From a virus (lineage: Duplodnaviria; Heunggongvirae; Uroviricota; Caudoviricetes), in IMG/VR virus record IMGVR_UViG_2645727901_000008: 64,000 bases of DNA. The stretch is one strand, 5' to 3'. Below the pieces are notes generated by a model. That model ran no database searches. It was not told the origin of the DNA and saw only the letters and a list, made by a program, of their open reading frames with translations. Made by a program: the position numbers and the translations under genes. Below are positions 1-63,360 of the stretch, one piece after another. Each line of letters opens with the position of its first letter. The stretch's first letter is position 1.

Positions 1-1280
1 CTCCATGTGTTAGCCGTACTCAACAGGGGGATCTTTTCACCGCTGGTACCGAGTTCTCTTAAACCAAGGTATTGGATAACGGCCAGTGTGCTTGTTTTAG
101 CCAGAATATCGCGACCGACTGACGTTAAATCAGTCTGCGCTACCGTATCCTTATCAATGAAATAAGGCAGTTTGTTTGCACCAGTCGCAAGACCAGCAAG
201 CGCGGTTAAAGTTGCATCCAGAGGCTGTTTGCCTGCCAGCGCATTTGTCATTGTTGTCGCAAAGTTCGGGTCATTGCCCAGTGCTGCTGCAAGCTCATTC
301 AGGGTATCAAGAGCTTCAGGTGATGAGCCGATCAATGCAGAGATAGCAGCTCTTACATAAGCGGTCGTAGCAATCTGCGTGTTATTCGTACCCTGTGCAG
401 CGGTAGGCGCAGTAGGTATTCCCGTTAATGCAGGGCTTGCTAAAGGCGCTTTGAGAGCCAGGGCATTGTTGATAGTTGTGCTGAAATTCGGGTCGTTATT
501 GATCGCAGCCGCTATTTCTTTCAGCGTGTCCATCGTTCCCGGAGCACCATTGATAAGCGCATTTATAGCAGCATAGACAAAGGCCGCATTTGCGATCTGT
601 GTGTTGTTTGTACCGGGTTCAGGTGTTGGCGAAGTCGGCGTACCTGACAGATGCGGACTATCGAGCGGAGCTTTTGTATCAACCAAATCATGGAGAGTTT
701 TGACAGCCAGAGGTGTAGCCGCTTTTCTTTCTTCTGTACTGCTTATTTCATTAGAGAATTCGACACCAACAGCACGGTTAACTCGGTATTTAAGCACAAT
801 CATTTCTTTAGTCACAGCCGTTGCGCCGCTAGGCACGATAACTCGACATAATTCAATTTGATTCTGCCCAATAGTATTGTCCGTACGCACGTAAATTCTT
901 GCAGCGCTGACAGAAGATGCGCTATCTACCTGTGTCGTTTTTACACCATGTTCAAAATTGGCTTCCAGCACAATAATGTTGGTAGCCCCAGCCTTTACCG
1001 AGACAGTCACATCTTCTATTTGCTGAACGGATATCTGAACATTATTTACATCTACTGAAGCAGCCCCTTTACCTTCTGAGTTTTCAGAAGTTATACGGAC
1101 GCTCAACCCTGTGCCGGGAACTGGTTCAAATCCACAGTAAAAGCCAGGCAAAACAATATTTTTAAGTTTTCTGTTAAGAGCCGAACTACTATAGAGTTCG
1201 AAATATTGAACATCAGCAAGCAACGGCTGTGAGACACCAGAGGATAGTGTCATTATGTTGTTCGTTTTATCAGCCCCCAT
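1..1280 (-). CDS. Tail fiber protein, N-terminal (constant) part; partial ORF running off the window start
   Basis: Reverse-strand ATG at 1280-1278 (MGADKTNNIMTLSS...), no stop before position 1; translation contains P2 gpH / P1 S / Mu S-type motifs (APLxSPxLTGxPTAPTAxQGTNNTQIATTAYV, NELAAALGNDPNF, ATLTALAGL). Not in ORF track because no stop lies inside the window. Confidence 0.85.
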   Translation of the reverse strand, partial: MGADKTNNIMTLSSGVSQPLLADVQYFELYSSSALNRKLKNIVLPGFYCGFEPVPGTGLSVRITSENSEGKGAASVDVNNVQISVQQIEDVTVSVKAGATNIIVLEANFEHGVKTTQVDSASSVSAARIYVRTDNTIGQNQIELCRVIVPSGATAVTKEMIVLKYRVNRAVGVEFSNEISSTEERKAATPLAVKTLHDLVDTKAPLDSPHLSGTPTSPTPEPGTNNTQIANAAFVYAAINALINGAPGTMDTLKEIAAAINNDPNFSTTINNALALKAPLASPALTGIPTAPTAAQGTNNTQIATTAYVRAAISALIGSSPEALDTLNELAAALGNDPNFATTMTNALAGKQPLDATLTALAGLATGANKLPYFIDKDTVAQTDLTSVGRDILAKTSTLAVIQYLGLRELGTSGEKIPLLSTANTW

Positions 1281-50890: not shown

Positions 50891-51270
50891 TGAGGCATAT
50901 ATCACCGGAAGAACTTATTGCGCTTCATGATGCGAATATAAGCCGCTACGGCGGCCTGCCGGGAATGTCAGATCCGGGTAGGGCAGAGGCCATTATCGGG
51001 AGAGTTCAGGCCAGAGTTGCCTACGACGAGATCACCGACCTTTTCGAAGTCTCCGCCACCTACCTGGTGGCTACGGCGAGAGGGCATATATTCAATGATG
51101 CCAATAAGCGTACCGCGCTAAACAGTGCGCTGCTATTTCTACGCCGTAACGGTATACAGGTATATGATTCTCCCGTGCTGGTGGAACTTGCGGTGGGGGC
51201 CGCAACTGGTGAAATCCCCGTATCTTCAGTAGCGGAAAAACTACGTGAATTATTTGGTTCCAATATTTGA
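50890..51270 (+). CDS. doc: Doc toxin (Fic-fold)
   Basis: [45 protein letters not shown]...[23 protein letters not shown] close to P1 Doc as recalled, divergent at the C-terminus. Confidence 0.95.
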
Positions 51271-51273
51271 AAA

Positions 51274-51299
51274 GAAGCCCGCTCAACCAGGCGGGCTTC
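51274..51299. terminator. Bidirectional terminator-like hairpin (gaagcccgc...gcgggcttc)
   Basis: Hairpin between convergent doc and the minus-strand operon. Confidence 0.6.
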
Positions 51300-51353
51300 C
51301 TACTATCACTCAATGATTTTTTCTGCTGTCAGCCAGCTAATTCGGTGATGTTT

Positions 51354-52160
51354 TTAGGCGTCAGCATCAGCATCCTCCGCTACCTCTGCTTCCACATCAG
51401 CCACGGCTTCATCGGACGGTTCTTCTTTGGCCTGATCTGCAATCGCCGCACGGCATTTCGCCCTGGCTGTAGCGATTGCTTCAGCTCGCACATCATCAGG
51501 AATCGTTGACGTGATATACATATCCACTTCTTCGGCGCGGAACACTGTTTGGTCCAGATATTCGCGTAGCATCCAGGTAAATTCGAAATCACACGCGATA
51601 ATCTCTGCGCTACCTTCTGCACCATTTGAGAAATGAATAAATGCCTGTTTAGCCAAACCGATAACACGACATGCGGTTGCCAAAACAGCGACAACTAGGT
51701 TTACATTTTCACACGCTACGGGCTGATTAACGCCGGAGATTACTCCATTTAACTGTCGGTTATATGGAAGGTAGTTTGAGATGCGTTCTACGCGCCATGT
51801 GCCAGTCAGGCTGCCATTTTTAAATATAATTGGTGTAACGGATAGCCCAAGCTCGCGTATAAGTCGTTGCGCTATAGCAGGATCATTAAACAGGTCTAAT
51901 GCTATACATTCGAAAGACTGCGCAAGGGCAAACAGTTCTTCCAGAGAGTAGTCTTTGCCCCTGGCGGTGATGTAACGACGAACGCCGCTGTCTGCATCAC
52001 TCCATATAGCTACGCCATGCTCTTCATTCAGCACTTCATTAAAGCCGAGATACGTCATGATAGTGCGTTCAATCGTGTCAAACGGCAGTGACATGTCGGC
52101 GTTAACAGCCACCAGCAGGCCATTACGCAAGCGGTATTGAATTGTTTTGGTGCTTTCCAT
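51354..52160 (-). CDS. Hypothetical protein with acidic C-terminus
   Basis: 268-aa ORF, last gene of a minus-strand operon. Confidence 0.5.
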   Translation of the reverse strand: MESTKTIQYRLRNGLLVAVNADMSLPFDTIERTIMTYLGFNEVLNEEHGVAIWSDADSGVRRYITARGKDYSLEELFALAQSFECIALDLFNDPAIAQRLIRELGLSVTPIIFKNGSLTGTWRVERISNYLPYNRQLNGVISGVNQPVACENVNLVVAVLATACRVIGLAKQAFIHFSNGAEGSAEIIACDFEFTWMLREYLDQTVFRAEEVDMYITSTIPDDVRAEAIATARAKCRAAIADQAKEEPSDEAVADVEAEVAEDADADA

Positions 52161-52166
52161 GTCAAA

Positions 52167-52844
52167 TCACTCCACTACAAACCAGTCACATGCCAGTAAG
52201 TCGCCTACAGAAGGAACCCACGGAACAACTACACCTTGTGCATTTTTTAAGGCGAAATAAGCACCATACGGAACGAGGTCGCCGGGGAAATATCCCTTAA
52301 TGGGTTCCATTCGTGCCGGGTACTGTCCTTCAGGAACCAGCCAGCAGAATTGGTTTTCGCCGTTCCACCCGCGTCGAGCAACTTTCTTGCCATCCTTCAG
52401 CCACATCAGCGCGTCAGAAAAGTCGGCTGCTTCAAGGTCGATTTCTTCTTGCTGGGTGGTGATGCCACCAGCAGAAATAGTTACGCTCCCGGTAAGATTA
52501 ATCATCACGCCGTTGTCATCCGTAATGATGACCGTGGTTCCATTTTTGGCGGCGTCGTTAACCAGGCCATAGCGTTCCTCAAATGGTTTCTCCGGGGCAT
52601 AGAACAAATAACCGTTTTCATAAACGATCAGATACCCGCCAGTTTTTGGTCGGTGTTTTTGTAAAAACATTGCGTCAACACAAACTGTTGCCCCTTTTGG
52701 CTCAACGAGTTCGATGCAGCCCCAAAGTGGGGCATCAGTTACTCCGAAAATAACAACATTTTTGATTTTCGATGCACTAACGTTTTTGTGAGCTTTGTAT
52801 TTGGGAAGGAACTTAAAAAGCTCTTTCGTTGCCATGTTATTCAT
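52167..52844 (-). CDS. Protein with C-terminal DUF2829-like domain (Tad2-like anti-Thoeris family fold?)
   Basis: C-terminal DFSDALMWLKDGKKVARRGWNGENQF...VVPWVPSVGDLLACDWFVVE resembles DUF2829 as recalled. Confidence 0.5.
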   Translation of the reverse strand: MNNMATKELFKFLPKYKAHKNVSASKIKNVVIFGVTDAPLWGCIELVEPKGATVCVDAMFLQKHRPKTGGYLIVYENGYLFYAPEKPFEERYGLVNDAAKNGTTVIITDDNGVMINLTGSVTISAGGITTQQEEIDLEAADFSDALMWLKDGKKVARRGWNGENQFCWLVPEGQYPARMEPIKGYFPGDLVPYGAYFALKNAQGVVVPWVPSVGDLLACDWFVVE

Positions 52845-53826: not shown

Positions 53827-54167
53827 CGACGCCCCCTTGCAGGATATCGACCTGCATCAGTATCCGGTGCGATAAAGCCGGTAGTGGGGCGAGTGAAAGC
53901 GAGATTAATCTTCTCGACCATAGTGCGATAATTTTCCTGATAGTGGGCCAGGAGTTTTTCGGCGGCAATGATGGTTACTTTCCGGACGTAGCTTTCTGCT
54001 TCCTCCAGATTTCGCCAGTTTTTTTCGAGGGTAAACACAGGGACGGCCTCAAGCCCGGTCATGATGCCGAATACAACGACAGCATGACTGTTCTTAACAC
54101 CAGCAGCGAAGGTTACGGTGTAACCATCCACCTTAAAGCGTCTTGATTCCGTGATTTGACTCTGCAA
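53823..54167 (-). CDS. Hypothetical protein, first gene of the minus-strand operon
   Basis: 114-aa ORF; operator-like motif about 57 bp upstream. Confidence 0.5.
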   Translation of the reverse strand: MQSQITESRRFKVDGYTVTFAAGVKNSHAVVVFGIMTGLEAVPVFTLEKNWRNLEEAESYVRKVTIIAAEKLLAHYQENYRTMVEKINLAFTRPTTGFIAPDTDAGRYPARGRR

Positions 54168-54223
54168 AGCACCCTCCGAAATAGGCGAGGGTACTTTACA
54201 GCAAAGATAACAATCTAAAAAGA

Positions 54224-54240
54224 TGTGTTAGAAATTTAAT
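54224..54240. promoter_or_regulatory. Operator-like motif (gtgttagaaatttaat)
   Basis: TTTCTAACA family between cre stop and the start at 54167. Confidence 0.45.
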
Positions 54241-55269
54241 TTATGAATCCATCAGGCGGCTATTAGCCCCCACAGACACGCCGCCACGGCGCAGATACCG
54301 CATAAGTGTTTCCGGTTTCTTCCAGGTTCCTTCCTGCATGATCTCCACCATAGACACCTGCTTTTCAGCCATATCGATAGCGGCCCCGACACGAGCACTA
54401 TGCCCGGTCCACGTCCGGTATCTCCCTTTGTTTGGCGTGGCATCTCTTTTATTCAGCAACACCCAGGCGTCGCTGAATATTTTCTCCATTGCAGGTGCAG
54501 TAAGGGGAGTTGTCGTAATCCTGGCCTTATTGCTACGGTGTATCGGCGGGAACAGCACCGCGTCAGGATGTTCACGAAGCCCGGAAACATCCAGCCAGTC
54601 ATTCAGCACTGCGGTAGTGCGACGGGAAAGCACCTTATCAAGCCCGGCGGCGGTCGTTATTGTCTTCGTGTGTGAAATATGTAGCGTGACAGTGTCACCT
54701 GTTTGGTCCAGATCTCCTACACGAATACGCGAGATTTCAGACATTCGCATCAGCGTATTGTATGCAACGAAGAGGAAAGCCCGGTTACGCAGGTCCACCA
54801 GCCGTTCTGACCTGGACAACAGGACGTCGAGCAGTTTCAGATCGTCCCACCGCAGCGGTATAGCCTGGCCTGTTCGTTCGCCTTTTTCCGTTGCCGCTTC
54901 GCGCCGGATGCGCCGCATAGCCAGAGAAACACTTTTATCATCCGAAAGTGGCGGAAGGCCACAATGCGAAAGCAGCATGTTAAGCATGGCGTAGTGCTTA
55001 TCAATGGTGGTCGAAGCCAGATCAGCATCATGCAGCTGAAGAAAATACTCGCGGGCCATCTCTGGTGAGATCGGGAACCAAGCGAGCTGGCGAGCGTGGC
55101 ACCATCGCGCCCAGGAGTGAAACACTAACCGGAGATCGCGCAAAGTATTCGGCGCGTAAGCCCCCTGGTCATTCATGAACCGCATAAAGTTTTCTGCGGC
55201 CTCCTGGTACTCTTTGCCAATGTTGCGCAGAAAACCACCGGAGCTGCCAGAGATAATTAATTCACTCAT
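54241..55269 (-). CDS. cre: Cre-family tyrosine recombinase (divergent Cre homolog)
   Basis: Collinear with P1 Cre with many substitutions (WARWC, LAMRRIRRE, NRAFLFVAYNTLMRMSEISRIRVGDL, WTGHSARVGAAIDMA); active-site R/H/R/W/Y-containing blocks present. Confidence 0.9.
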   Translation of the reverse strand: MSELIISGSSGGFLRNIGKEYQEAAENFMRFMNDQGAYAPNTLRDLRLVFHSWARWCHARQLAWFPISPEMAREYFLQLHDADLASTTIDKHYAMLNMLLSHCGLPPLSDDKSVSLAMRRIRREAATEKGERTGQAIPLRWDDLKLLDVLLSRSERLVDLRNRAFLFVAYNTLMRMSEISRIRVGDLDQTGDTVTLHISHTKTITTAAGLDKVLSRRTTAVLNDWLDVSGLREHPDAVLFPPIHRSNKARITTTPLTAPAMEKIFSDAWVLLNKRDATPNKGRYRTWTGHSARVGAAIDMAEKQVSMVEIMQEGTWKKPETLMRYLRRGGVSVGANSRLMDS

Positions 55270-55418
55270 GAAACTATTTAACCTCTATATACAGATGACG
55301 CTACGCAAAAATATAAAAATGACAGGGTAGCTATAAGTTAATTTTCAAAATTCAAGCCTTTGATTCGAGGCACGTATTTTTAGTGATGTCAACACTGATC
55401 ATCTACCCATGATTATAG

Positions 55419-55454
55419 TCTAACTTTAAATAATGCCAATTATCTAAAGTTAGA
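55419..55454. other. lox-like recombination site: 13/14-bp inverted arms around an 8-bp spacer (CTAACTTTAAATA-ATGCCAAT-TATCTAAAGTTAG)
   Basis: Same architecture as loxP with shared arm positions (TAACTT...ATA) and spacer starting ATG; about 150 bp upstream of cre. Confidence 0.7.
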
Positions 55455-55624
55455 AACTTAGGAATTTTTTTCCTTTCCCCGTAGATGGGCAATGCATTGC
55501 TGGCGTGGGCTTTAAGTTATGCCTGGCAGTTTTTAAGCAGAATTTTCTAAATTGGATGACAAAAAAATGCATCTTGATCCTTTACTCACCCTGTTATTCG
55601 GCATAGATTTGTCATAGTAATTTT

Positions 55625-55641
55625 ATGTTAGAAAACTAAAT
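55625..55641. promoter_or_regulatory. Operator-like motif (atgttagaaaactaaat)
   Basis: TTTTCTAACA family, 13 bp upstream of the ATG at 55654. Confidence 0.45.
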
Positions 55642-55653
55642 CGAGTAGGAATA

Positions 55654-56691
55654 ATGAGTAAGAAGTCGATCGAGAAAGAGTACAAACGGTTCCTGCAAAC
55701 CGCTGAACGGTGGAAAGAGCTGGTGGTCGCAAACTCTGTTTTCCATGATACCAGTTATGCCGGCGAGGAATTCCGCCACGTTGCACTAACACATGATCAG
55801 AATGTACTAGAAGAAGCTGAAAAGTGCCTCACAGAATGGAAAGCCTTTGTTGACTTGTGCCGTAACGCTGACGGCAAAGCGTCCAACATTGTTGAGTCTG
55901 TATATTCTCCGATCCCATTCATTATTGAGGACACAAATCAAAGCACGCATATTGTTGTGCAAAGCGCGACCACCACCCGCTCATTTACGCGCGAAAATCT
56001 GCTCAAAAAATATGATGCAATTATAAAGAAAAGCCTGAAAAACAAGATATTTTCGCAGATTGTTGGTGCACTTGAAGAAGAGCGCCGTTTTTTCGCATCA
56101 GAACCTGAAGGGGAAGTTTACCGGGCGCGCAAAGATGGATACACAGATGTAGTGCTTACAACAAACATTGAAGGCAGCAATGCTCTGTCACGATTCAGGG
56201 TAGGCGCACACGGAGCCTTAGTGTTCGCAAAACTTCCGAACACCACAGTGCCCGTTGTTAATAATGTCGGCGAACGTCGCAGCATTACTATTTATTCTGG
56301 GGTTGAGTCGATACCTTGCGGCCTGCTTGGTGACTTTAGCCTCTATCGCGTTCGCGATCTGGAGAAACACCAACCAAGCTATGTTGCGAAGTCATATATC
56401 TTGCGAAACATCGACATCCGCAATGAGAGCTTAAAGAACAAATCAGCCAAAATGCTTGAGGAAGCCGATCCGGCTATTCGCCATATCATTGAGCGTAAAA
56501 TACAGACAGCACGCGAAGCGATGGCGAGACTGAATAAAATGGATCTGGAGTTGTTAGACGTAATGATGACATCCGGAGATGACCTGACAGGCATAAAACT
56601 GACAGACGCGCGGAAAAGATACGGTAAAACCATAGAAGAACGTTACGGGTTCACTTTCTCCCAAACACAGCACGCCGCTAAACTCTGGTAA
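55654..56691 (+). CDS. Hypothetical protein adjacent to lox (candidate regulator)
   Basis: 345-aa ORF with RBS; no recognisable motif. Confidence 0.55.
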   Translation: MSKKSIEKEYKRFLQTAERWKELVVANSVFHDTSYAGEEFRHVALTHDQNVLEEAEKCLTEWKAFVDLCRNADGKASNIVESVYSPIPFIIEDTNQSTHIVVQSATTTRSFTRENLLKKYDAIIKKSLKNKIFSQIVGALEEERRFFASEPEGEVYRARKDGYTDVVLTTNIEGSNALSRFRVGAHGALVFAKLPNTTVPVVNNVGERRSITIYSGVESIPCGLLGDFSLYRVRDLEKHQPSYVAKSYILRNIDIRNESLKNKSAKMLEEADPAIRHIIERKIQTAREAMARLNKMDLELLDVMMTSGDDLTGIKLTDARKRYGKTIEERYGFTFSQTQHAAKLW

Positions 56692-56696
56692 TCACA

Positions 56697-56725
56697 AGCC
56701 CCGCATTGCCGGGGCTTTATATATC
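56697..56725 (+). terminator. Terminator hairpin (agccccgcattgccggggct + TTATATAT)
   Basis: Between convergent 55654..56691 and pacB. Confidence 0.6.
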
Positions 56726-58225
56726 CAGATCTGGCATTTCCACATCTGCAAGAACCTGATCGCGGAAGGTAGCCATTTCAGCGCCGATATCTTCATTAGC
56801 AGGAACATAGTCCACCAGCATTGTAAAGCAGTAGGTATCCCATCGGTCAGGTGATTTGATGTTCAGCTTTTGCCGCATGTGCTCCTTGCGCATCATCGCC
56901 ATCTTCCCTTCTTCATTAAGTAAAAAGGGGATTTTTGACGCTTGCTCTGCCGTTTTAGGGTCACTGTCTATTCGCATACGACCTGACTTTATGGCATCAC
57001 GAGCCATAATATTTGCGTAGGCACGTTGGTTAACAAAACGCTCCTTGTCTTTGTTCGAAAACATGGGTTTCCCCCACCGAATACGTACCGGATTAGCCCC
57101 ACGGCGCACCAGCTGCGCACAGGTATCTGAACCAAAACCGTCTGCGTCAACCGCGATTGTAATATTCGGGTATTTATCCGGCGTGCATTCGTTGTATATA
57201 AAGTCAGCAAAAGCCAGCGGGTCCATAGTCCCTGGCATTTCCATTATCTTAAAGTTAACAACGCGCCGCTTATTCCTGTGACCTGACACCTTGCAGATGT
57301 TAAGGACCGACTTGTCTCGCCCGTTCCCAACGTCAGCTGTCGCTACCCACCCCCAATTTTTCTCCAACAACACCTTGCGCCGCGCAGCGCGATCGCATTC
57401 ATCACGACCAAGCAAATAGCCGTTAATCTCCCGAGGGAACTGACCAAGCACCTTAACCATATACTCAATAGAATCGCGCCCGCCATATTCCAGGAGTTTC
57501 TGCCTGATGAATTGTGGTGTGACGAACGGTGATTCTTCTGAGTTAAGAACAATTGCTGTCCAGATCCCTTTCGGGTTGTCTGGGGTTTTAGCTTGAGAAT
57601 GGTGCGAATCGTAGAAATAACCACTTGGCCTTGTTGGCTGGGATAGCATCAACATTCGGTTATCTTCTTCAGTAAGAGCACCGGTCATTACGCCGATCGC
57701 CTTATCAGATATACCAGATGCTTCATCCAGAATTAGAAGCAAATGTGCCGCGTGTTCCCCCGCCAGCGCTTCTTCGTTGCCGAGTCGATAACCTTTGCAG
57801 AGAACTTCCCAAATCCCCTTACGGGAGCGCTCATAAAACATGGTGTCAGAGAGGACAAAATAGGTCTGCAACCACCCATGACGCTTAACTGCATTCGCCC
57901 AATACTGTTTAACGTATTTGAATACGCCTGTTTTTACCTGGCCTATCTTGTTAGCAACAATGATGACACGGGCATCGGGGAACAGGATCATAAAAATCAA
58001 CAGCAACATCGCGGTAAGGGACGACTTCCCCGTTCCGTGTCCGGACGTGACGGTAGTCCTACTCCCCGTTTCCTGCACTGACTGAATGATCTGCTGCTGC
58101 TGGTGGGAGGGGAACATCCCAAAAATATCGACAACAGCCTGGGTAAAGTTGTAGCGGTATTTGATTACCATATCGCGCCAGCGTGGATCGCTGGTGACGC
58201 ATTTAATCTTGCGCCCGCCAGCCAT
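56717..58225 (-). CDS. pacB: Terminase large subunit (PacB-like)
   Basis: 502 aa, Walker A-like GHGTGKS, downstream of and overlapping the PacA-like gene. Confidence 0.75.
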   Translation of the reverse strand: MAGGRKIKCVTSDPRWRDMVIKYRYNFTQAVVDIFGMFPSHQQQQIIQSVQETGSRTTVTSGHGTGKSSLTAMLLLIFMILFPDARVIIVANKIGQVKTGVFKYVKQYWANAVKRHGWLQTYFVLSDTMFYERSRKGIWEVLCKGYRLGNEEALAGEHAAHLLLILDEASGISDKAIGVMTGALTEEDNRMLMLSQPTRPSGYFYDSHHSQAKTPDNPKGIWTAIVLNSEESPFVTPQFIRQKLLEYGGRDSIEYMVKVLGQFPREINGYLLGRDECDRAARRKVLLEKNWGWVATADVGNGRDKSVLNICKVSGHRNKRRVVNFKIMEMPGTMDPLAFADFIYNECTPDKYPNITIAVDADGFGSDTCAQLVRRGANPVRIRWGKPMFSNKDKERFVNQRAYANIMARDAIKSGRMRIDSDPKTAEQASKIPFLLNEEGKMAMMRKEHMRQKLNIKSPDRWDTYCFTMLVDYVPANEDIGAEMATFRDQVLADVEMPDLDI

Positions 58226-59589
58226 TAATCATCCTCCGGCGGTTCTATCGCGATATCATCATCTCCGGCGTCATACCCTGCATCAGATACATCATAATCA
58301 CCGTAAATTTCAGCCGTTGCCGAAGGGTCAATATCCAGCTCTTCGTCGTTGGCCTCGAATTCTCCAGCTTTACGCTCGCCATTGCGGTCGTAATCTCCGC
58401 ACCCCAATTCTTCAACAATGGTTGCCACATCCGCCCGGCGCTCTGCCAGCCATTGCGGATGGTTAGCCTGAAGCGTTGCAAACTCCCTTGCCTCTTTGTC
58501 CAGCTGTTCATCATCAACATCATTGACGTCAGAAACAGGTGGTTCGAGAAGAGTGATAGCTTTCGCCGCGCGCGCCGCGAGGATAGCCGGGACGCTGACC
58601 CCCTGGCGCTCGATGTATTCAGCAACACCGATATCATCCAGTTCCTCGCGCTCACGCATACGTATAGCGGCGGCGATAACTCTGGCTGCGCGTGCGTCAG
58701 CGCCAATGCGATATTCAATCTCTTTGCCACGCTGTTCGGCCTGTAGGCGTGCTAATTCGAGTTTTTCTCTGGCCTCAGCCTCTTTGAATGCTTGCTGGCG
58801 AGCGCTCTGACGAAGCTTTTCATCCCCCTGTCGCAGCTTTTGTTCGGACTGATATATAGCTGCCAACCTACTGATAAAATCATTCATGTAGTAGGCCGCG
58901 TCACTGATTAGACCGAGAAGACGCTGCCCAGGGTGCATTCCTTCTGGCTCTTTATCGCCCAAGGCGTCTATTTCCGCCTGTAGGCGTTCGGCCTCCTGAT
59001 CAACAATGCTTTGATACTGAAGTGCGCGCTCTTGCGCCATTTGAATTGCTAACCGCAGGTGTTCTTCTGCGCCGTTCTTCATCATATCGCGAGCCACATT
59101 CGTAGTGGGCAATGTGGCACGCTGCACAGCACCGTCAGGGATCATTGCAGAAGATCCCTCAATTTTTGGGGCGCTTTTATCTTCTTCGGGGATCATTTTC
59201 GCCATTTTTTCGCGCAATGATCTCCTGACAGATTCTTTTATCTCATTGTTATTATTTGCATTATTTTCATGATCCGAAGTTTTCTTTCTCGGCATACTTC
59301 GGAAAGAACCTGCGCCCTGCGAATTGTCAATTTCTGTAAATTTTGTTTTTTCTGCACCCTCTTCCAGCTTTTTTGTTGCTCTTCCCGCCCGTTTTTTTTC
59401 AGGTGATTTGGTGCTTTTTTTTGTTGTCTTTACCTGCGACCGCACCTCATTTTTTTTCATATTGAGATGCTTTCTGGCTGTATTGAAGCTAAGGCCATGC
59501 TCCTCACAGTATTCCTTTACAGTGATCCCTTTTTCTTCACGCAACGCTATAAAGCGGGCGCGGTGCTCCTCCCAATTAACCAGACTCAT
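58225..59589 (-). CDS. pacA: Terminase small/pac-recognition subunit (PacA-like)
   Basis: 454 aa, N-terminal HTH-like region, charged coiled-coil middle, acidic C-terminus; contains a GATC cluster. Confidence 0.7.
   Translation of the reverse strand: MSLVNWEEHRARFIALREEKGITVKEYCEEHGLSFNTARKHLNMKKNEVRSQVKTTKKSTKSPEKKRAGRATKKLEEGAEKTKFTEIDNSQGAGSFRSMPRKKTSDHENNANNNNEIKESVRRSLREKMAKMIPEEDKSAPKIEGSSAMIPDGAVQRATLPTTNVARDMMKNGAEEHLRLAIQMAQERALQYQSIVDQEAERLQAEIDALGDKEPEGMHPGQRLLGLISDAAYYMNDFISRLAAIYQSEQKLRQGDEKLRQSARQQAFKEAEAREKLELARLQAEQRGKEIEYRIGADARAARVIAAAIRMREREELDDIGVAEYIERQGVSVPAILAARAAKAITLLEPPVSDVNDVDDEQLDKEAREFATLQANHPQWLAERRADVATIVEELGCGDYDRNGERKAGEFEANDEELDIDPSATAEIYGDYDVSDAGYDAGDDDIAIEPPEDD
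59139..59275. other. Candidate pac site: cluster of five GATC-containing hexamers inside pacA
   Basis: GATC at 59140, 59153, 59191, 59219, 59271 within about 135 bp; P1 pac is a Dam-methylated hexamer cluster inside pacA. Confidence 0.35.
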
Positions 59590-59978
59590 AAAGCAACACC
59601 ACGCTTTTTAACGGCGGCATTCCACAGCTTATTCGCCATGTCCACCAGCTCTCGTTGCTCTTTTCGCGCCTGTTCGACTGATTTCCTGCTACAGTTTTTA
59701 ACCAGTAAGCTACCGTATTCAGGCGTGCGCCCGCGCACCTTGAACTGATATCCGTTCAGACCATGTAGCCAATATTTTCGTGGATACACACGATCATCCA
59801 GCTCACAGATTGCCCTGCTTGAACGAACAAAATGACGAATGATGTTAGTTACACTTACTCGTGAAACATGGAGATGAGGGTATTTTTCTTTGGCGAGAGT
59901 GGTAATTTCAGTGACTGTCAGATAGCAGTCAGCCCTGATCATGATATCCGCAATTTCTGCGCTGCTGATTTGTTCCAT
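59586..59978 (-). CDS. Small protein upstream of pacA (Lpa-like position)
   Basis: 130-aa ORF overlapping pacA start; operator-like motif upstream; product from position only. Confidence 0.35.
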   Translation of the reverse strand: MEQISSAEIADIMIRADCYLTVTEITTLAKEKYPHLHVSRVSVTNIIRHFVRSSRAICELDDRVYPRKYWLHGLNGYQFKVRGRTPEYGSLLVKNCSRKSVEQARKEQRELVDMANKLWNAAVKKRGVAL

Positions 59979-61508: not shown

Positions 61509-61584
61509 TGGTGGCCCCTACCGGACTTGAACCGGTGACCGTGCGATTATGAGTCGCCAGCTCTAACCACTGAGCTAAAGGGCC
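61509..61584 (-). tRNA. tRNA with CAU anticodon (tRNA-Ile2-like; Met not excluded)
   Basis: Minus-strand GGCCCTTTAGCTCAGTGGTTAGAGC...CTCATAA...GGTTCAAGTCC...GGGGCCACCA; close to E. coli ileX as recalled; CCA encoded. Confidence 0.85.
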
Positions 61585-61594
61585 AATTAGTGTT

Positions 61595-61705
61595 TTATTT
61601 TCGACGCCTGAGATTCTTCGCGACTTGTTCTACGCCGTATACGATCACAAGTAGAAACAGCAAAAACCATCCAGGGTTCTTATCGATATACGTCCAAAAA
61701 TCCAT
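61595..61705 (-). CDS. Possible 36-aa membrane peptide
   Basis: MDFWTYIDKNPGWFLLFLLVIVYGVEQVAKNLRRRK; start overlaps upstream stop (TGATG). Confidence 0.3.
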   Translation of the reverse strand: MDFWTYIDKNPGWFLLFLLVIVYGVEQVAKNLRRRK

Positions 61706-61869
61706 CATGAGTTCCTGAACGCACCTTCAATAATCGGCAATAGCAATACCACAGCTACTGAAACTAATGCCCCATCAGCCAACACCGACATCACTTTGCT
61801 GGTGAAATCCACCAGTACGGACAAAACGAGAAAGCCAATGGCGCCCGCAATACGCGCCTTGCCAATCAT
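61705..61869 (-). CDS. Possible 54-aa membrane peptide
   Basis: MIGKARIAGAIGFLVLSVLVDF...; ATG overlaps the TerB-like stop (TAATG). Confidence 0.35.
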   Translation of the reverse strand: MIGKARIAGAIGFLVLSVLVDFTSKVMSVLADGALVSVAVVLLLPIIEGAFRNS

Positions 61870-62303
61870 TACAGATAATCTTCCACACGAAGGCCAAGAC
61901 GGCGACCAACCTCTTCCAGAACCTTATGCTCCGCAGGTTCGATTTCACCATCTGCTTCAGCGATCGTGAGCATGTTCACGAAGACTTCTTCCGCTTCTTT
62001 GGGATCGTTTTTGATATCTTCAATTTCGCGGAGGATATTCATGCGACCAACACGGAAACCAGCTTCCAGTTGCTCAGTAAAACGGGTGATTGTTGCGGTA
62101 ATTTCGTTGCCAAAATGACTTAAGCGAGGATTAGAGCGGACAAGCTGATCAAGTTTCGCTGTTTCTTCCTTTTCGATTTCACCATCTGCGGCAGACACCA
62201 GCAAACAGCCACCGATGATGGCCTCCATCAGATCGCGATTCTCAACCCTTTTCAGCTCTACTTTTGCTGAAGCGACTTTCTTACCGAAAAATTTACCGAA
62301 CAT
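61869..62303 (-). CDS. TerB-like (tellurite-resistance family) protein
   Basis: Repeated ADGEIE-type motifs (SAADGEIEKEE; AEADGEIEPAE); likely start MFGKFFGKK at 62303. Confidence 0.6.
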   Translation of the reverse strand: MFGKFFGKKVASAKVELKRVENRDLMEAIIGGCLLVSAADGEIEKEETAKLDQLVRSNPRLSHFGNEITATITRFTEQLEAGFRVGRMNILREIEDIKNDPKEAEEVFVNMLTIAEADGEIEPAEHKVLEEVGRRLGLRVEDYL

Positions 62304-62570
62304 TGGTTTTCCCTCAATAAACATGACGTATTTATTAGGTTGCGGTGCCTGGTGCCTCCAGGTGACGTTAACCAGTTAACAATTAACGCCGGGATTTTTG
62401 TCTTCACAATTAAGGAGGATTGTTTTAACTGTTCCGCGTGCGCTTAGCCGCATTCACCGCAATGGTAAGAGCACTTGGCTGGCTGGGCGGCGATGACGCC
62501 TGTACGCATTTGGTGAACCGGTTCTGCTTCCGGCATTCGCTTAATTAGCCAAATACTCTTAACGTTGCAC

Positions 62571-62657
62571 TGGCGGAGAGTAATGGAATCGAACCATCAT
62601 CGCTTGCGCAATGGGACGGTTTTCAAGACCGCTTGAGCACCATGCTCCCTACTCTCC
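62571..62657 (-). tRNA. Class-II tRNA-like gene, anticodon UGA (tRNA-Ser-like), atypical D-arm
   Basis: 7-bp acceptor stem (GGAGAGT/ACTCTCC) + G + CCA, anticodon arm GGTCTTGAAAACCG as in E. coli tRNA-Ser(UGA), T-loop TTCGATT, long variable region. Confidence 0.5.
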
Positions 62658-62793
62658 CGTTATTGTGGCGACCGGTGCTGATCTCCGGCTTGCGGTTATT
62701 TCAGACTCTCACGGGCGTTTAATTGCCCCGCCGAACAGCTCTTTTCCGCAATAGCTGCAATGTCTTTCGCGCATCAGCCTGCGCATTCACCAC

Positions 62794-62881
62794 AATGTTG
62801 AGAACACTGGTTGTCACGCTGCAACGCAACATTTATTCGTAGATTGGGATATGACCCCGTTACGCCAGTGTTCTCAACGTT
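62794..62881. repeat. Inverted repeat (aatgttgagaacactgg ... ccagtgttctcaacgtt), 16/17 match, about 55-bp spacer
   Basis: Read directly from sequence. Confidence 0.5.
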
Positions 62882-63030
62882 GTAGTGCCGGTTACGGTTC
62901 CGGCCAGGCCTCTTCCTCAACGGGTTGTTCTCCATACGGACTACCGTTTATTGGTCGTTCCTGCGGTTTATGTTGTGAAGCCAGATGCTTATCTTCTGGT
63001 TGCTTCAAAGAGCTGCACTTCATCACAACG

Positions 63031-63100
63031 GTAAGGGTACTTCGTAGGGATTCGAACCCTCTGCCAAGCACGGCGATCTCCGACGTCGCAAAATACCCTT
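63031..63100 (-). ncRNA. Truncated tRNA-like element flanked by a 10-bp inverted repeat
   Basis: Canonical T-arm (GGGTTCGAATCCC) and acceptor-like stem, D-arm-like hairpin, no anticodon arm of normal length; ggtaagggta/tacccttacc terminal inverted repeat. Confidence 0.3.
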
Positions 63101-63111
63101 ACCTGTTGCGT

Positions 63112-63187
63112 TGGTGCCGATTAACGGGATCGAACCGCTGACCATTCGCTTACAAAGCGACTGCTCTACCAACTGAGCTAAACCGGC
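63112..63187 (-). tRNA. tRNA-Thr (anticodon UGU)
   Basis: Minus-strand GCCGGTT-TA-GCTCAGTTGGTAGAGC-...TTTGTAA...GGTTCGATCC...AATCGGC-A-CCA cloverleaf. Confidence 0.85.
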
Positions 63188-63191
63188 AATT

Positions 63192-63278
63192 TGGTGGGGA
63201 GTGATGGAGTCGAACCACCCGAGTCGCAATGACAGTAGATTTACAGTCTACCCCGCTACCCCTACGGACTAACTCCCC
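63192..63278 (-). tRNA. tRNA-Tyr-like (anticodon GUA, class II)
   Basis: Acceptor GGGGAGT/ACTCCCC + A + CCA; anticodon arm TAGACTGTAAATCTACTGTCAT nearly identical to E. coli tRNA-Tyr; D-arm irregular. Confidence 0.6.
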
Positions 63279-63283
63279 TAAAG

Positions 63284-63360
63284 TGGCGATGGTGGGTGGA
63301 TTCGAACCACCGACCGACAGCTTAGAAGGCTGCTGCTCTATCCTACTGAGCTACACCATC
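63284..63360 (-). tRNA. tRNA-Arg (anticodon UCU)
   Basis: GATGGTG-TA-GCTC-AGTAGGATA-GAGC-A-GCAGC-CTTCTAA-GCTGT-CGGTC-GGTGG-TTCGAAT-CCACC-CACCATC-G-CCA. Confidence 0.85.

What the first reader, a model, noticed from the sequence alone, without database searches (positions are those of the whole stretch)
54241..55454. Divergent Cre homolog with a cognate lox-like site distinct from loxP
The recombinase is collinear with P1 Cre but differs at many positions. About 150 bp upstream of its start is a 34-36 bp site with loxP architecture (arms CTAACTTTAAATA / CTAACTTTAGATA inverted, 8-bp asymmetric spacer ATGCCAAT). Arm sequence differs from loxP (ATAACTTCGTATA) at several positions, so this may be a naturally orthogonal Cre/lox pair. 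Unlike my recollection of P1, the gene on the far side of lox (55654..56691) is divergently oriented and flanked by terminase genes.
Basis: partly seen in the sequence, partly recalled or inferred. Interest (0 to 1): 0.65.

Follow-up and report, generated by a model that had tools for sequence, protein, structure and literature searches.

The report
Known Dre recombinase and rox site
This is not a new Cre/lox-like pair but the well-known Dre recombinase of phage D6 (identical protein) next to its rox target site, which here carries one common natural base change, on a D6-like plasmid prophage of E. coli.

Summary
The ORF at 54241..55269 (-) encodes a 342-aa protein identical at every residue to Dre, the Cre homologue of phage D6. 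It is about 42% identical to P1 Cre. The site 150 bp upstream (55421..55452) is the catalogued 32-bp rox site with one substitution, T to C at 55444.

The neighbours are c1, pacB, pacA and lpa, as in D6.

The C form of rox is a common natural allele. It is in 9 of 30 IMG/VR contigs and in 28 PLSDB plasmids, against 110 with the canonical site. It travels with the c1-side sequence.

Minor new points:
- All 33 nucleotide differences from D6 in dre are synonymous.
- rox is a sharp mosaic joint between dre-side and c1-side lineages.
- A conserved near-consensus sigma-70 promoter overlaps rox and points at dre.

Interest is low.

The parts
54241..55269 (-). dre: Dre tyrosine recombinase, 342 aa
   Evidence: 100% amino-acid identity to Dre of phage D6 in both GenBank records. 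33 nucleotide differences from D6, all synonymous. Pfam Phage_integrase E = 5.3e-17. Catalytic R175, H290, R293, W316, Y325 and K202 align with those of Cre.
55421..55452 (.). rox site (14-bp inverted arms, 4-bp GCCA core; in loxP-style framing 13-8-13 at 55420..55453), natural C allele
   Evidence: 31 of 32 identical to the annotated rox of AY753669. Single occurrence in the window, none in 100 shuffles. Inverted repeat reported.
55444..55444 (.). the single difference from canonical rox (T to C in the c1-proximal arm; position 25 in 13-8-13 numbering)
   Evidence: Same allele in 9 of 30 IMG/VR contigs and 28 PLSDB plasmids against 110 canonical. Position 25 is one of the three positions per arm that distinguish loxP from rox (PMC4957104, Fig. 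7 legend).
55412..55439 (-). sigma-70 promoter-like element pointing at dre: -35 TTGGCA (55439..55434, inside the rox core), 16-nt spacer formed by the left rox arm, -10 TATAAT (55417..55412)
   Evidence: 11 of 12 match. Only match of 11/12 or better in the whole window on either strand; 153 of 5000 shuffles of the intergenic region give one; the -10 hexamer and its spacing are kept in all 32 rox loci examined. Function is inferred, not shown.
55654..56691 (+). c1: prophage repressor homologue, 345 aa, an allele distinct from that of D6
   Evidence: 89.9% amino-acid identity to D6 C1, 35 differences. 20% identity to P1 C1, E = 8e-8. Annotated c1 in the D6 records.
56717..58225 (-). pacB: terminase (pacase) large subunit
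   Evidence: 98.4% amino-acid identity to D6 PacB. Weak Pfam Terminase_6N match.
58225..59589 (-). pacA: pacase subunit A
   Evidence: 98.9% amino-acid identity to D6 PacA.
59586..59978 (-). lpa: late promoter activator
   Evidence: 100% amino-acid identity to D6 Lpa.

Best explanation
The locus is the Dre/rox site-specific recombination module of a D6-like (P1-related) plasmid prophage of E. coli. Dre is a Cre-type tyrosine recombinase. One monomer binds each inverted arm of rox, two rox sites synapse as a tetramer, and strands are exchanged across the central core without accessory proteins. By analogy with Cre/loxP in P1, the module probably circularises the terminally redundant phage DNA after injection and resolves plasmid-prophage dimers so that copies segregate. 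The rox here carries a common natural T to C polymorphism in the c1-proximal arm and most likely remains a working Dre substrate. What is shown: identity of the protein, near-identity of the site, synteny, purifying selection on dre, and mosaic joints at rox. What is inferred: activity on this allele, and the biological roles.
For: - The protein is 100% identical to Dre.
- The site is 31 of 32 identical to the annotated rox, and the flanking genes are dre, c1, pacB, pacA and lpa as in D6.
- The rest of the window is 98% identical to the D6 genome.
- The closest records are roughly 78-96-kb E. coli, Shigella and Salmonella plasmids.
- The catalytic residues are intact.
- dre has 33 synonymous and 0 non-synonymous differences from D6. 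C-allele carriers L011 and L032 likewise have 0 amino-acid changes despite 24 and 37 nucleotide differences. The gene is therefore under strong purifying selection next to this allele.
- The C-allele right arm with the window-type c1 flank is joined at rox to two different dre lineages. The window has 21 mismatches with L010 in the 70 nt left of rox and 3 in the 70 nt right of it; with L021 it has 4 left and 40 right. Exchange within the rox core would produce this pattern.
- The literature says Dre acts on rox, is heterospecific with Cre/loxP, and keeps Cre's catalytic residues (PMC4777119; PMC4957104).
Against: - No tool here can show that Dre recombines the C allele.
- The changed base is one of the three positions per arm that distinguish loxP from rox, so an effect on binding is possible.
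- No paper in the held library contains the variant sequence.
- The one published arm variant that Dre tolerates (pox) differs at another position.
- The roles in circularisation and dimer resolution are taken from P1 and were not tested for D6-like elements here.
Confidence: 0.96

Rival explanations
1. One reading: a previously unrecognised, naturally orthogonal Cre/lox-like pair distinct from all catalogued systems.
For: The arms differ from loxP at several positions and the protein is only about 42% identical to Cre.
Against: The protein is identical to Dre and the site matches rox at 31 of 32 positions. Both are annotated in GenBank records from 2004 and 2017 and are widely used.
Confidence: 0.01
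2. The C-allele rox is a weakened or defective half-site. Dre acts on it poorly, and the allele persists by hitch-hiking with the linked c1 (immunity) allele.
For: The substitution is at position 25, one of the loxP/rox discriminating positions next to the residues that set specificity (PMC4957104). The allele is tightly linked to the c1-side sequence.
Against: - The allele is in about 20-30% of natural elements from E. coli, Shigella and Salmonella.
- dre next to it shows no relaxation of selection (0 amino-acid changes for 24-37 nucleotide changes).
- The allele is found joined at rox to two dre lineages.
- Only one of the two arms is changed.
Confidence: 0.12
3. The sharp mosaic boundary at rox does not reflect Dre-mediated exchange. 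It arises from ordinary homologous recombination in the conserved dre flank, combined with old allelic divergence of the immunity region that simply ends where the constrained rox sequence begins.
For: The dre side is 96-99% identical among most elements, giving ample homology for RecA. The first 120 bp of the c1 side are barely alignable between types (41-64% identity), as expected for diverged immunity control regions.
Against: L010 and L028 have a dre side only about 72-80% identical to the window right up to rox. L010 nevertheless switches to 95% identity immediately after it, which leaves only the 32-bp site as shared sequence at that joint.
Confidence: 0.3

Closest known systems
Dre/rox of Escherichia phage D6 (GenBank AY753669, MF356679; described by Sauer and McDermott 2004, cited in PMC4777119 and PMC4957104)
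   Same: The recombinase is identical in amino-acid sequence. The site has the same position and matches rox at 31 of 32 bases. Gene order is the same: dut, orf3, orf2, dre, rox, c1, pacB, pacA, lpa.
   Different: One T to C change in the c1-proximal rox arm (55444), and a G rather than T just outside that arm, which lengthens the palindrome by one pair. There are 33 synonymous changes in dre. The c1 allele is different (89.9% amino-acid identity) and the 110 bp next to rox on the c1 side are unrelated.
Cre/loxP of phage P1
   Same: Same protein family, collinear alignment and same catalytic residues. Same genomic logic: the site lies between a divergent recombinase gene and the c1 operon, and c1 converges on pacB.
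   Different: Only 41-42% identity. The arms differ at three inner positions and the core differs. No cra, coi or imcA/B genes are present. The literature reports no cross-recombination between Cre/loxP and Dre/rox (PMC4957104).
Panto/pox of Pantoea sp. aB (PMC4957104)
   Same: A Cre-like recombinase whose site has arms nearly identical to rox. Dre recombines pox and Panto recombines rox.
   Different: The paper reports Panto as 52-53% identical to Dre. pox (GAAACTTTAAATA ATAAGTCT TATTTAAAGTTTC) differs from rox at an outer arm position and in the core, not at the base changed in this window.

Membership tests
Dre/rox system of phage D6 | Recombinase with the Dre sequence | tested here: met
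   342 of 342 residues identical to AAV84949 and ASR76376.
Dre/rox system of phage D6 | 32-bp rox site TAACTTTAAATAATGCCAATTATTTAAAGTTA upstream of dre | tested here: met
   31 of 32 identical at 55421..55452, 150 bp from the dre start. The single change is T to C at 55444. The same allele recurs in many natural D6-like elements.
Dre/rox system of phage D6 | Location in the pac-c1 (immC) region of a P1-related plasmid prophage | tested here: met
   dre, rox, c1, pacB, pacA and lpa are in the same order and orientation as in D6. The window is otherwise 98% identical to D6.
Dre/rox system of phage D6 | Dre catalyses recombination between two copies of this site, and Cre does not | not testable with these tools
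   Shown in the literature for canonical rox only (PMC4777119, PMC4957104). No paper with the C-allele sequence was found.
Cre-type tyrosine recombinases | Phage_integrase catalytic domain with the R-K-H-R-W-Y residues | tested here: met
   Pfam PF00589 E = 5.3e-17. R175, K202, H290, R293, W316 and Y325 are invariant in the alignment with Cre.
Cre/loxP proper (phage P1 and close relatives P7, phiW39, SJ46) | Near-identity to Cre and a loxP site (ATAACTTCGTATA arms, ATGTATGC spacer) | tested here: not met
   41-42% identity to Cre. Site arms and core differ from loxP.

The most novel reading that the evidence does not exclude
rox may do two jobs. Its core supplies the -35 hexamer and its left arm supplies the spacer of a conserved near-consensus promoter for dre, so Dre bound at rox would shut off its own synthesis. 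The common T to C polymorphism, at a specificity-determining arm position, may also tune Dre occupancy or recombination between elements of different immunity types.
Probability: 0.3. Interest if true: 0.3.

Novelty: already known. Interest (0 to 1): 0.08.

Why it matters
As a discovery it does not matter, because Dre/rox has been a standard genome-engineering tool since 2004. Three small points may help users of the system or students of P1-like plasmid prophages.

- A natural single-base arm variant of rox sits next to an unchanged Dre in a fifth to a third of wild elements. This suggests tolerance at a position thought to set specificity.
- rox is a sharp natural joint between dre-side and immunity-side modules.
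- rox overlaps a strong bacterial promoter-like element. This could matter when rox sites are placed in bacterial constructs.

Tried and rejected
- I tried to read the primary descriptions, Sauer and McDermott 2004 (tried as PMC534624) and Gilcrease and Casjens 2018 (PMC5800970). Neither is held. Statements about the original characterisation therefore rest on papers that cite them (PMC4777119, PMC4957104) and on the GenBank annotations.
- I searched the paper library for the variant sequence on either strand and found no hits.
- I checked whether the "one point mutation" in E. coli DEC12A mentioned in PMC4957104 was this rox allele. The supplement shows it refers to a Dre protein of 99.7% identity, not to the site.
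- I checked whether pox, which Dre recombines, carries the same arm change and so amounts to a published test. It does not; pox differs at an outer arm position.
- I considered whether Dre residues co-vary with the rox allele. They do not: identical Dre occurs with both alleles.
- I looked for cra-, coi- or imc-like small ORFs around rox and found only short ORFs of up to 54 aa with no support.
- Structure prediction and the large protein searches were not run, because exact identity to Dre made them unnecessary.

Full report
**Observation**

The window has an ATG-initiated ORF of 342 codons at 54241..55269 on the minus strand. At 55420..55453 it reads CTAACTTTAAATA ATGCCAAT TATCTAAAGTTAG, which starts 150 bp from the ORF's start codon. 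The repeat finder reports this as an inverted repeat with 16-nt arms, 94% complementary, 4 nt apart. The ORF product aligns end to end with P1 Cre. PDB Cre chains score E = 5e-69 over residues 22-341, and identity to Cre is 41-42%.

**Identity**

A megablast of 54100..55700 against phage records hits Escherichia phage D6. There the matched features are annotated as dre (tyrosine recombinase), the "region of crossover (rox) site for Dre recombinase", and c1.

- The window protein is identical at all 342 residues to Dre in both D6 records.
- The annotated 32-bp rox is TAACTTTAAATAATGCCAATTATTTAAAGTTA. The window has TAACTTTAAATAATGCCAATTATCTAAAGTTA at 55421..55452, a single T to C change at 55444.
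- The pattern occurs once in the window with up to 3 mismatches allowed, and in none of 100 shuffles.
- The neighbours match D6: c1 (55654..56691, 89.9% amino-acid identity), pacB (98.4%), pacA (98.9%) and lpa (100%).
- The first 25 kb of the window is 98% identical to the D6 genome.
- The closest records are roughly 78-96-kb plasmids of E. coli, Shigella and Salmonella. The best is E. coli W444 plasmid NZ_CP122510.1 at 99.3%.
- 126 of 5,426 complete E. coli genomes carry the locus, almost always on a plasmid.

The window is therefore part of a D6-like, P1-related plasmid prophage, and the finding is its Dre/rox module.

**Family tests**

Pfam places a Phage_integrase domain at residues 157-327 (E = 5.3e-17). 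R175, K202, H290, R293, W316 and Y325 are invariant in the alignment with Cre. These match the catalytic residues listed for Dre in PMC4777119. The three residues that PMC4957104 links to rox-versus-loxP discrimination (Cre K43, R259, G263; R, P, K in Dre) are R, P and K here. The locus fails the test for Cre/loxP proper, both on protein identity and on site sequence.

**Comparison with P1**

The P1 record shows lpa, pacA and pacB on one strand. Next come c1, coi, imcB and imcA on the other strand, running away from lox. Then comes lox, followed by cra and cre running away from it on the far side. The window has the same logic: dre and c1 diverge from rox, and c1 converges on pacB. The real differences are these:

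- There is no cra between the site and the recombinase gene.
- There are no coi or imc genes between the site and c1.
- C1 is longer and very divergent (345 aa, 20% identity to P1 C1, E = 8e-8).

**The one-base difference**

A scan of IMG/VR for the site, with four arm positions left free, returned 30 contigs. Of these, 21 have canonical rox and 9 have the same C allele. Exact-word searches of PLSDB found 28 plasmids with the C allele and 110 with the canonical site. It is thus a common natural polymorphism.

In the 13-8-13 numbering of PMC4957104 the changed base is position 25. This is one of three positions per arm that distinguish loxP from rox. No paper in the held library contains the variant string. 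The arm variant that Dre is known to tolerate, pox, differs elsewhere. Activity on this allele is therefore inferred, not shown. The inference rests on three results:

- Identical Dre occurs with both alleles.
- dre next to the C allele is under strong purifying selection. It has 33 synonymous and 0 non-synonymous differences from D6, and 0 amino-acid changes for 24 and 37 nucleotide changes among C-allele carriers L011 and L032.
- The C-allele arm with its c1 flank is joined at rox to two different dre lineages.

**Mosaic joint at rox**

Identity to D6 is 93-99% across dre. It falls to about 74% in the bin containing rox, and stays at 79-85% through most of c1. The base-level alignment shows similarity collapsing at the outer edge of the right arm.

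Across 32 loci, the dre side does not sort by rox allele, but the c1 side does, and sharply. Ungapped mismatch counts in the 70 nt on either side of rox, each locus against the window:

| Locus | Left of rox | Right of rox |
|---|---|---|
| L021 | 4 | 40 |
| L010 | 21 | 3 |
| L028 | 21 | 47 |

L028 has the same left-side pattern as L010. Opposite switches at the same 32 bp are what exchange in the rox core between co-resident elements would give. Homologous recombination combined with old divergence of the immunity region remains a rival for part of this pattern.

**Promoter overlapping rox**

The consensus scan finds TTGGCA, 16 nt, TATAAT on the minus strand. The -35 hexamer lies inside the rox core, the left arm forms the spacer, and the -10 hexamer lies just outside rox, pointing at dre. 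It is the only match of 11/12 or better in the whole 64-kb window. About 3% of shuffles of the intergenic region give one. The -10 hexamer and its spacing are kept in all 32 loci although the adjacent bases vary. This suggests that Dre bound at rox could repress its own promoter. That is a hypothesis only.

**Mechanism**

Dre is a Cre-type tyrosine recombinase that needs no accessory proteins. One monomer binds each arm, two sites synapse, and strands are exchanged across the core (PMC4777119). By analogy with P1 Cre/loxP, and from established knowledge of P1, the module most likely circularises injected terminally redundant DNA and resolves plasmid-prophage dimers. A study of D6-like Salmonella plasmids assigns it the multimer-resolution role (PMC6799933).

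**Verdict**

The functional interpretation is correct but the novelty claim is not. Interest is low. The allele survey, the mosaic joint and the promoter overlap are minor additions.

Noticed in passing
window 55412..55439 (minus strand): A near-consensus sigma-70 promoter (TTGGCA, 16 nt, TATAAT; 11 of 12) overlaps rox and points at dre. The -35 hexamer is inside the rox core. It is the only match this good in the 64-kb window, and the -10 hexamer is conserved in all 32 rox loci examined. Dre bound at rox might therefore regulate its own gene.
   Followed up: partly
window 55453..57400, compared with L001-L033: rox is a sharp mosaic joint. At least three c1-side types (C1 differing from the window's by 0-14, 34-36 or 65-67 residues) are combined with at least three dre lineages (0-4, 20 or 35-36 residue differences), and the similarity switches fall at the 32-bp site. 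L033 has the window-type c1 flank but the canonical T allele.
   Followed up: partly
window 54241..55269: All 33 nucleotide differences between this dre and D6 dre are synonymous (30 at third codon positions, 3 at first positions). Dre is thus almost frozen at the protein level across lineage A, although lineages about 94% and 90% identical also exist next to the same site (L015/L026, L010/L028).
   Followed up: partly
window 61509..63360 (minus strand); L003 6084..7850: The tRNA cassette differs from D6. The window has Met(cat), a weak Ser(tga) candidate, Thr(tgt), Tyr(gta) and Arg(tct). By ARAGORN, D6 has Met, Ser, Thr and Asn(gtt). ARAGORN places all of them, and Rfam the four it detects, on the minus strand, whereas the D6 GenBank record lists its tRNAs on the plus strand and omits Met. 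The Ser candidate at 62571..62657 does not reach Rfam's tRNA threshold.
   Followed up: partly
window 51200..51400 and 52400..52800: There are indels relative to D6. The window has about 237 extra bases inside ORF 52167..52844 (225 aa). The D6 counterpart is annotated as only the C-terminal half of a phage SJ46 protein, and the closest plasmid annotates a DUF2829 protein there. D6 has about 283 extra bases near 51200-51400. Upstream of 50600 the window does not align with the D6 stretch compared here.
   Followed up: no
window 1..731: The first ~700 bases match the P1 tail-fibre gene S / cix inversion region at 86-90% identity, alongside the D6 match. This suggests the invertible tail-fibre segment lies at the window's start.
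   Followed up: no
E. coli genome search: Two of the 131 matching places in complete E. coli genomes are on chromosomes rather than plasmids. They could be integrated or mis-assembled D6-like elements.
   Followed up: no
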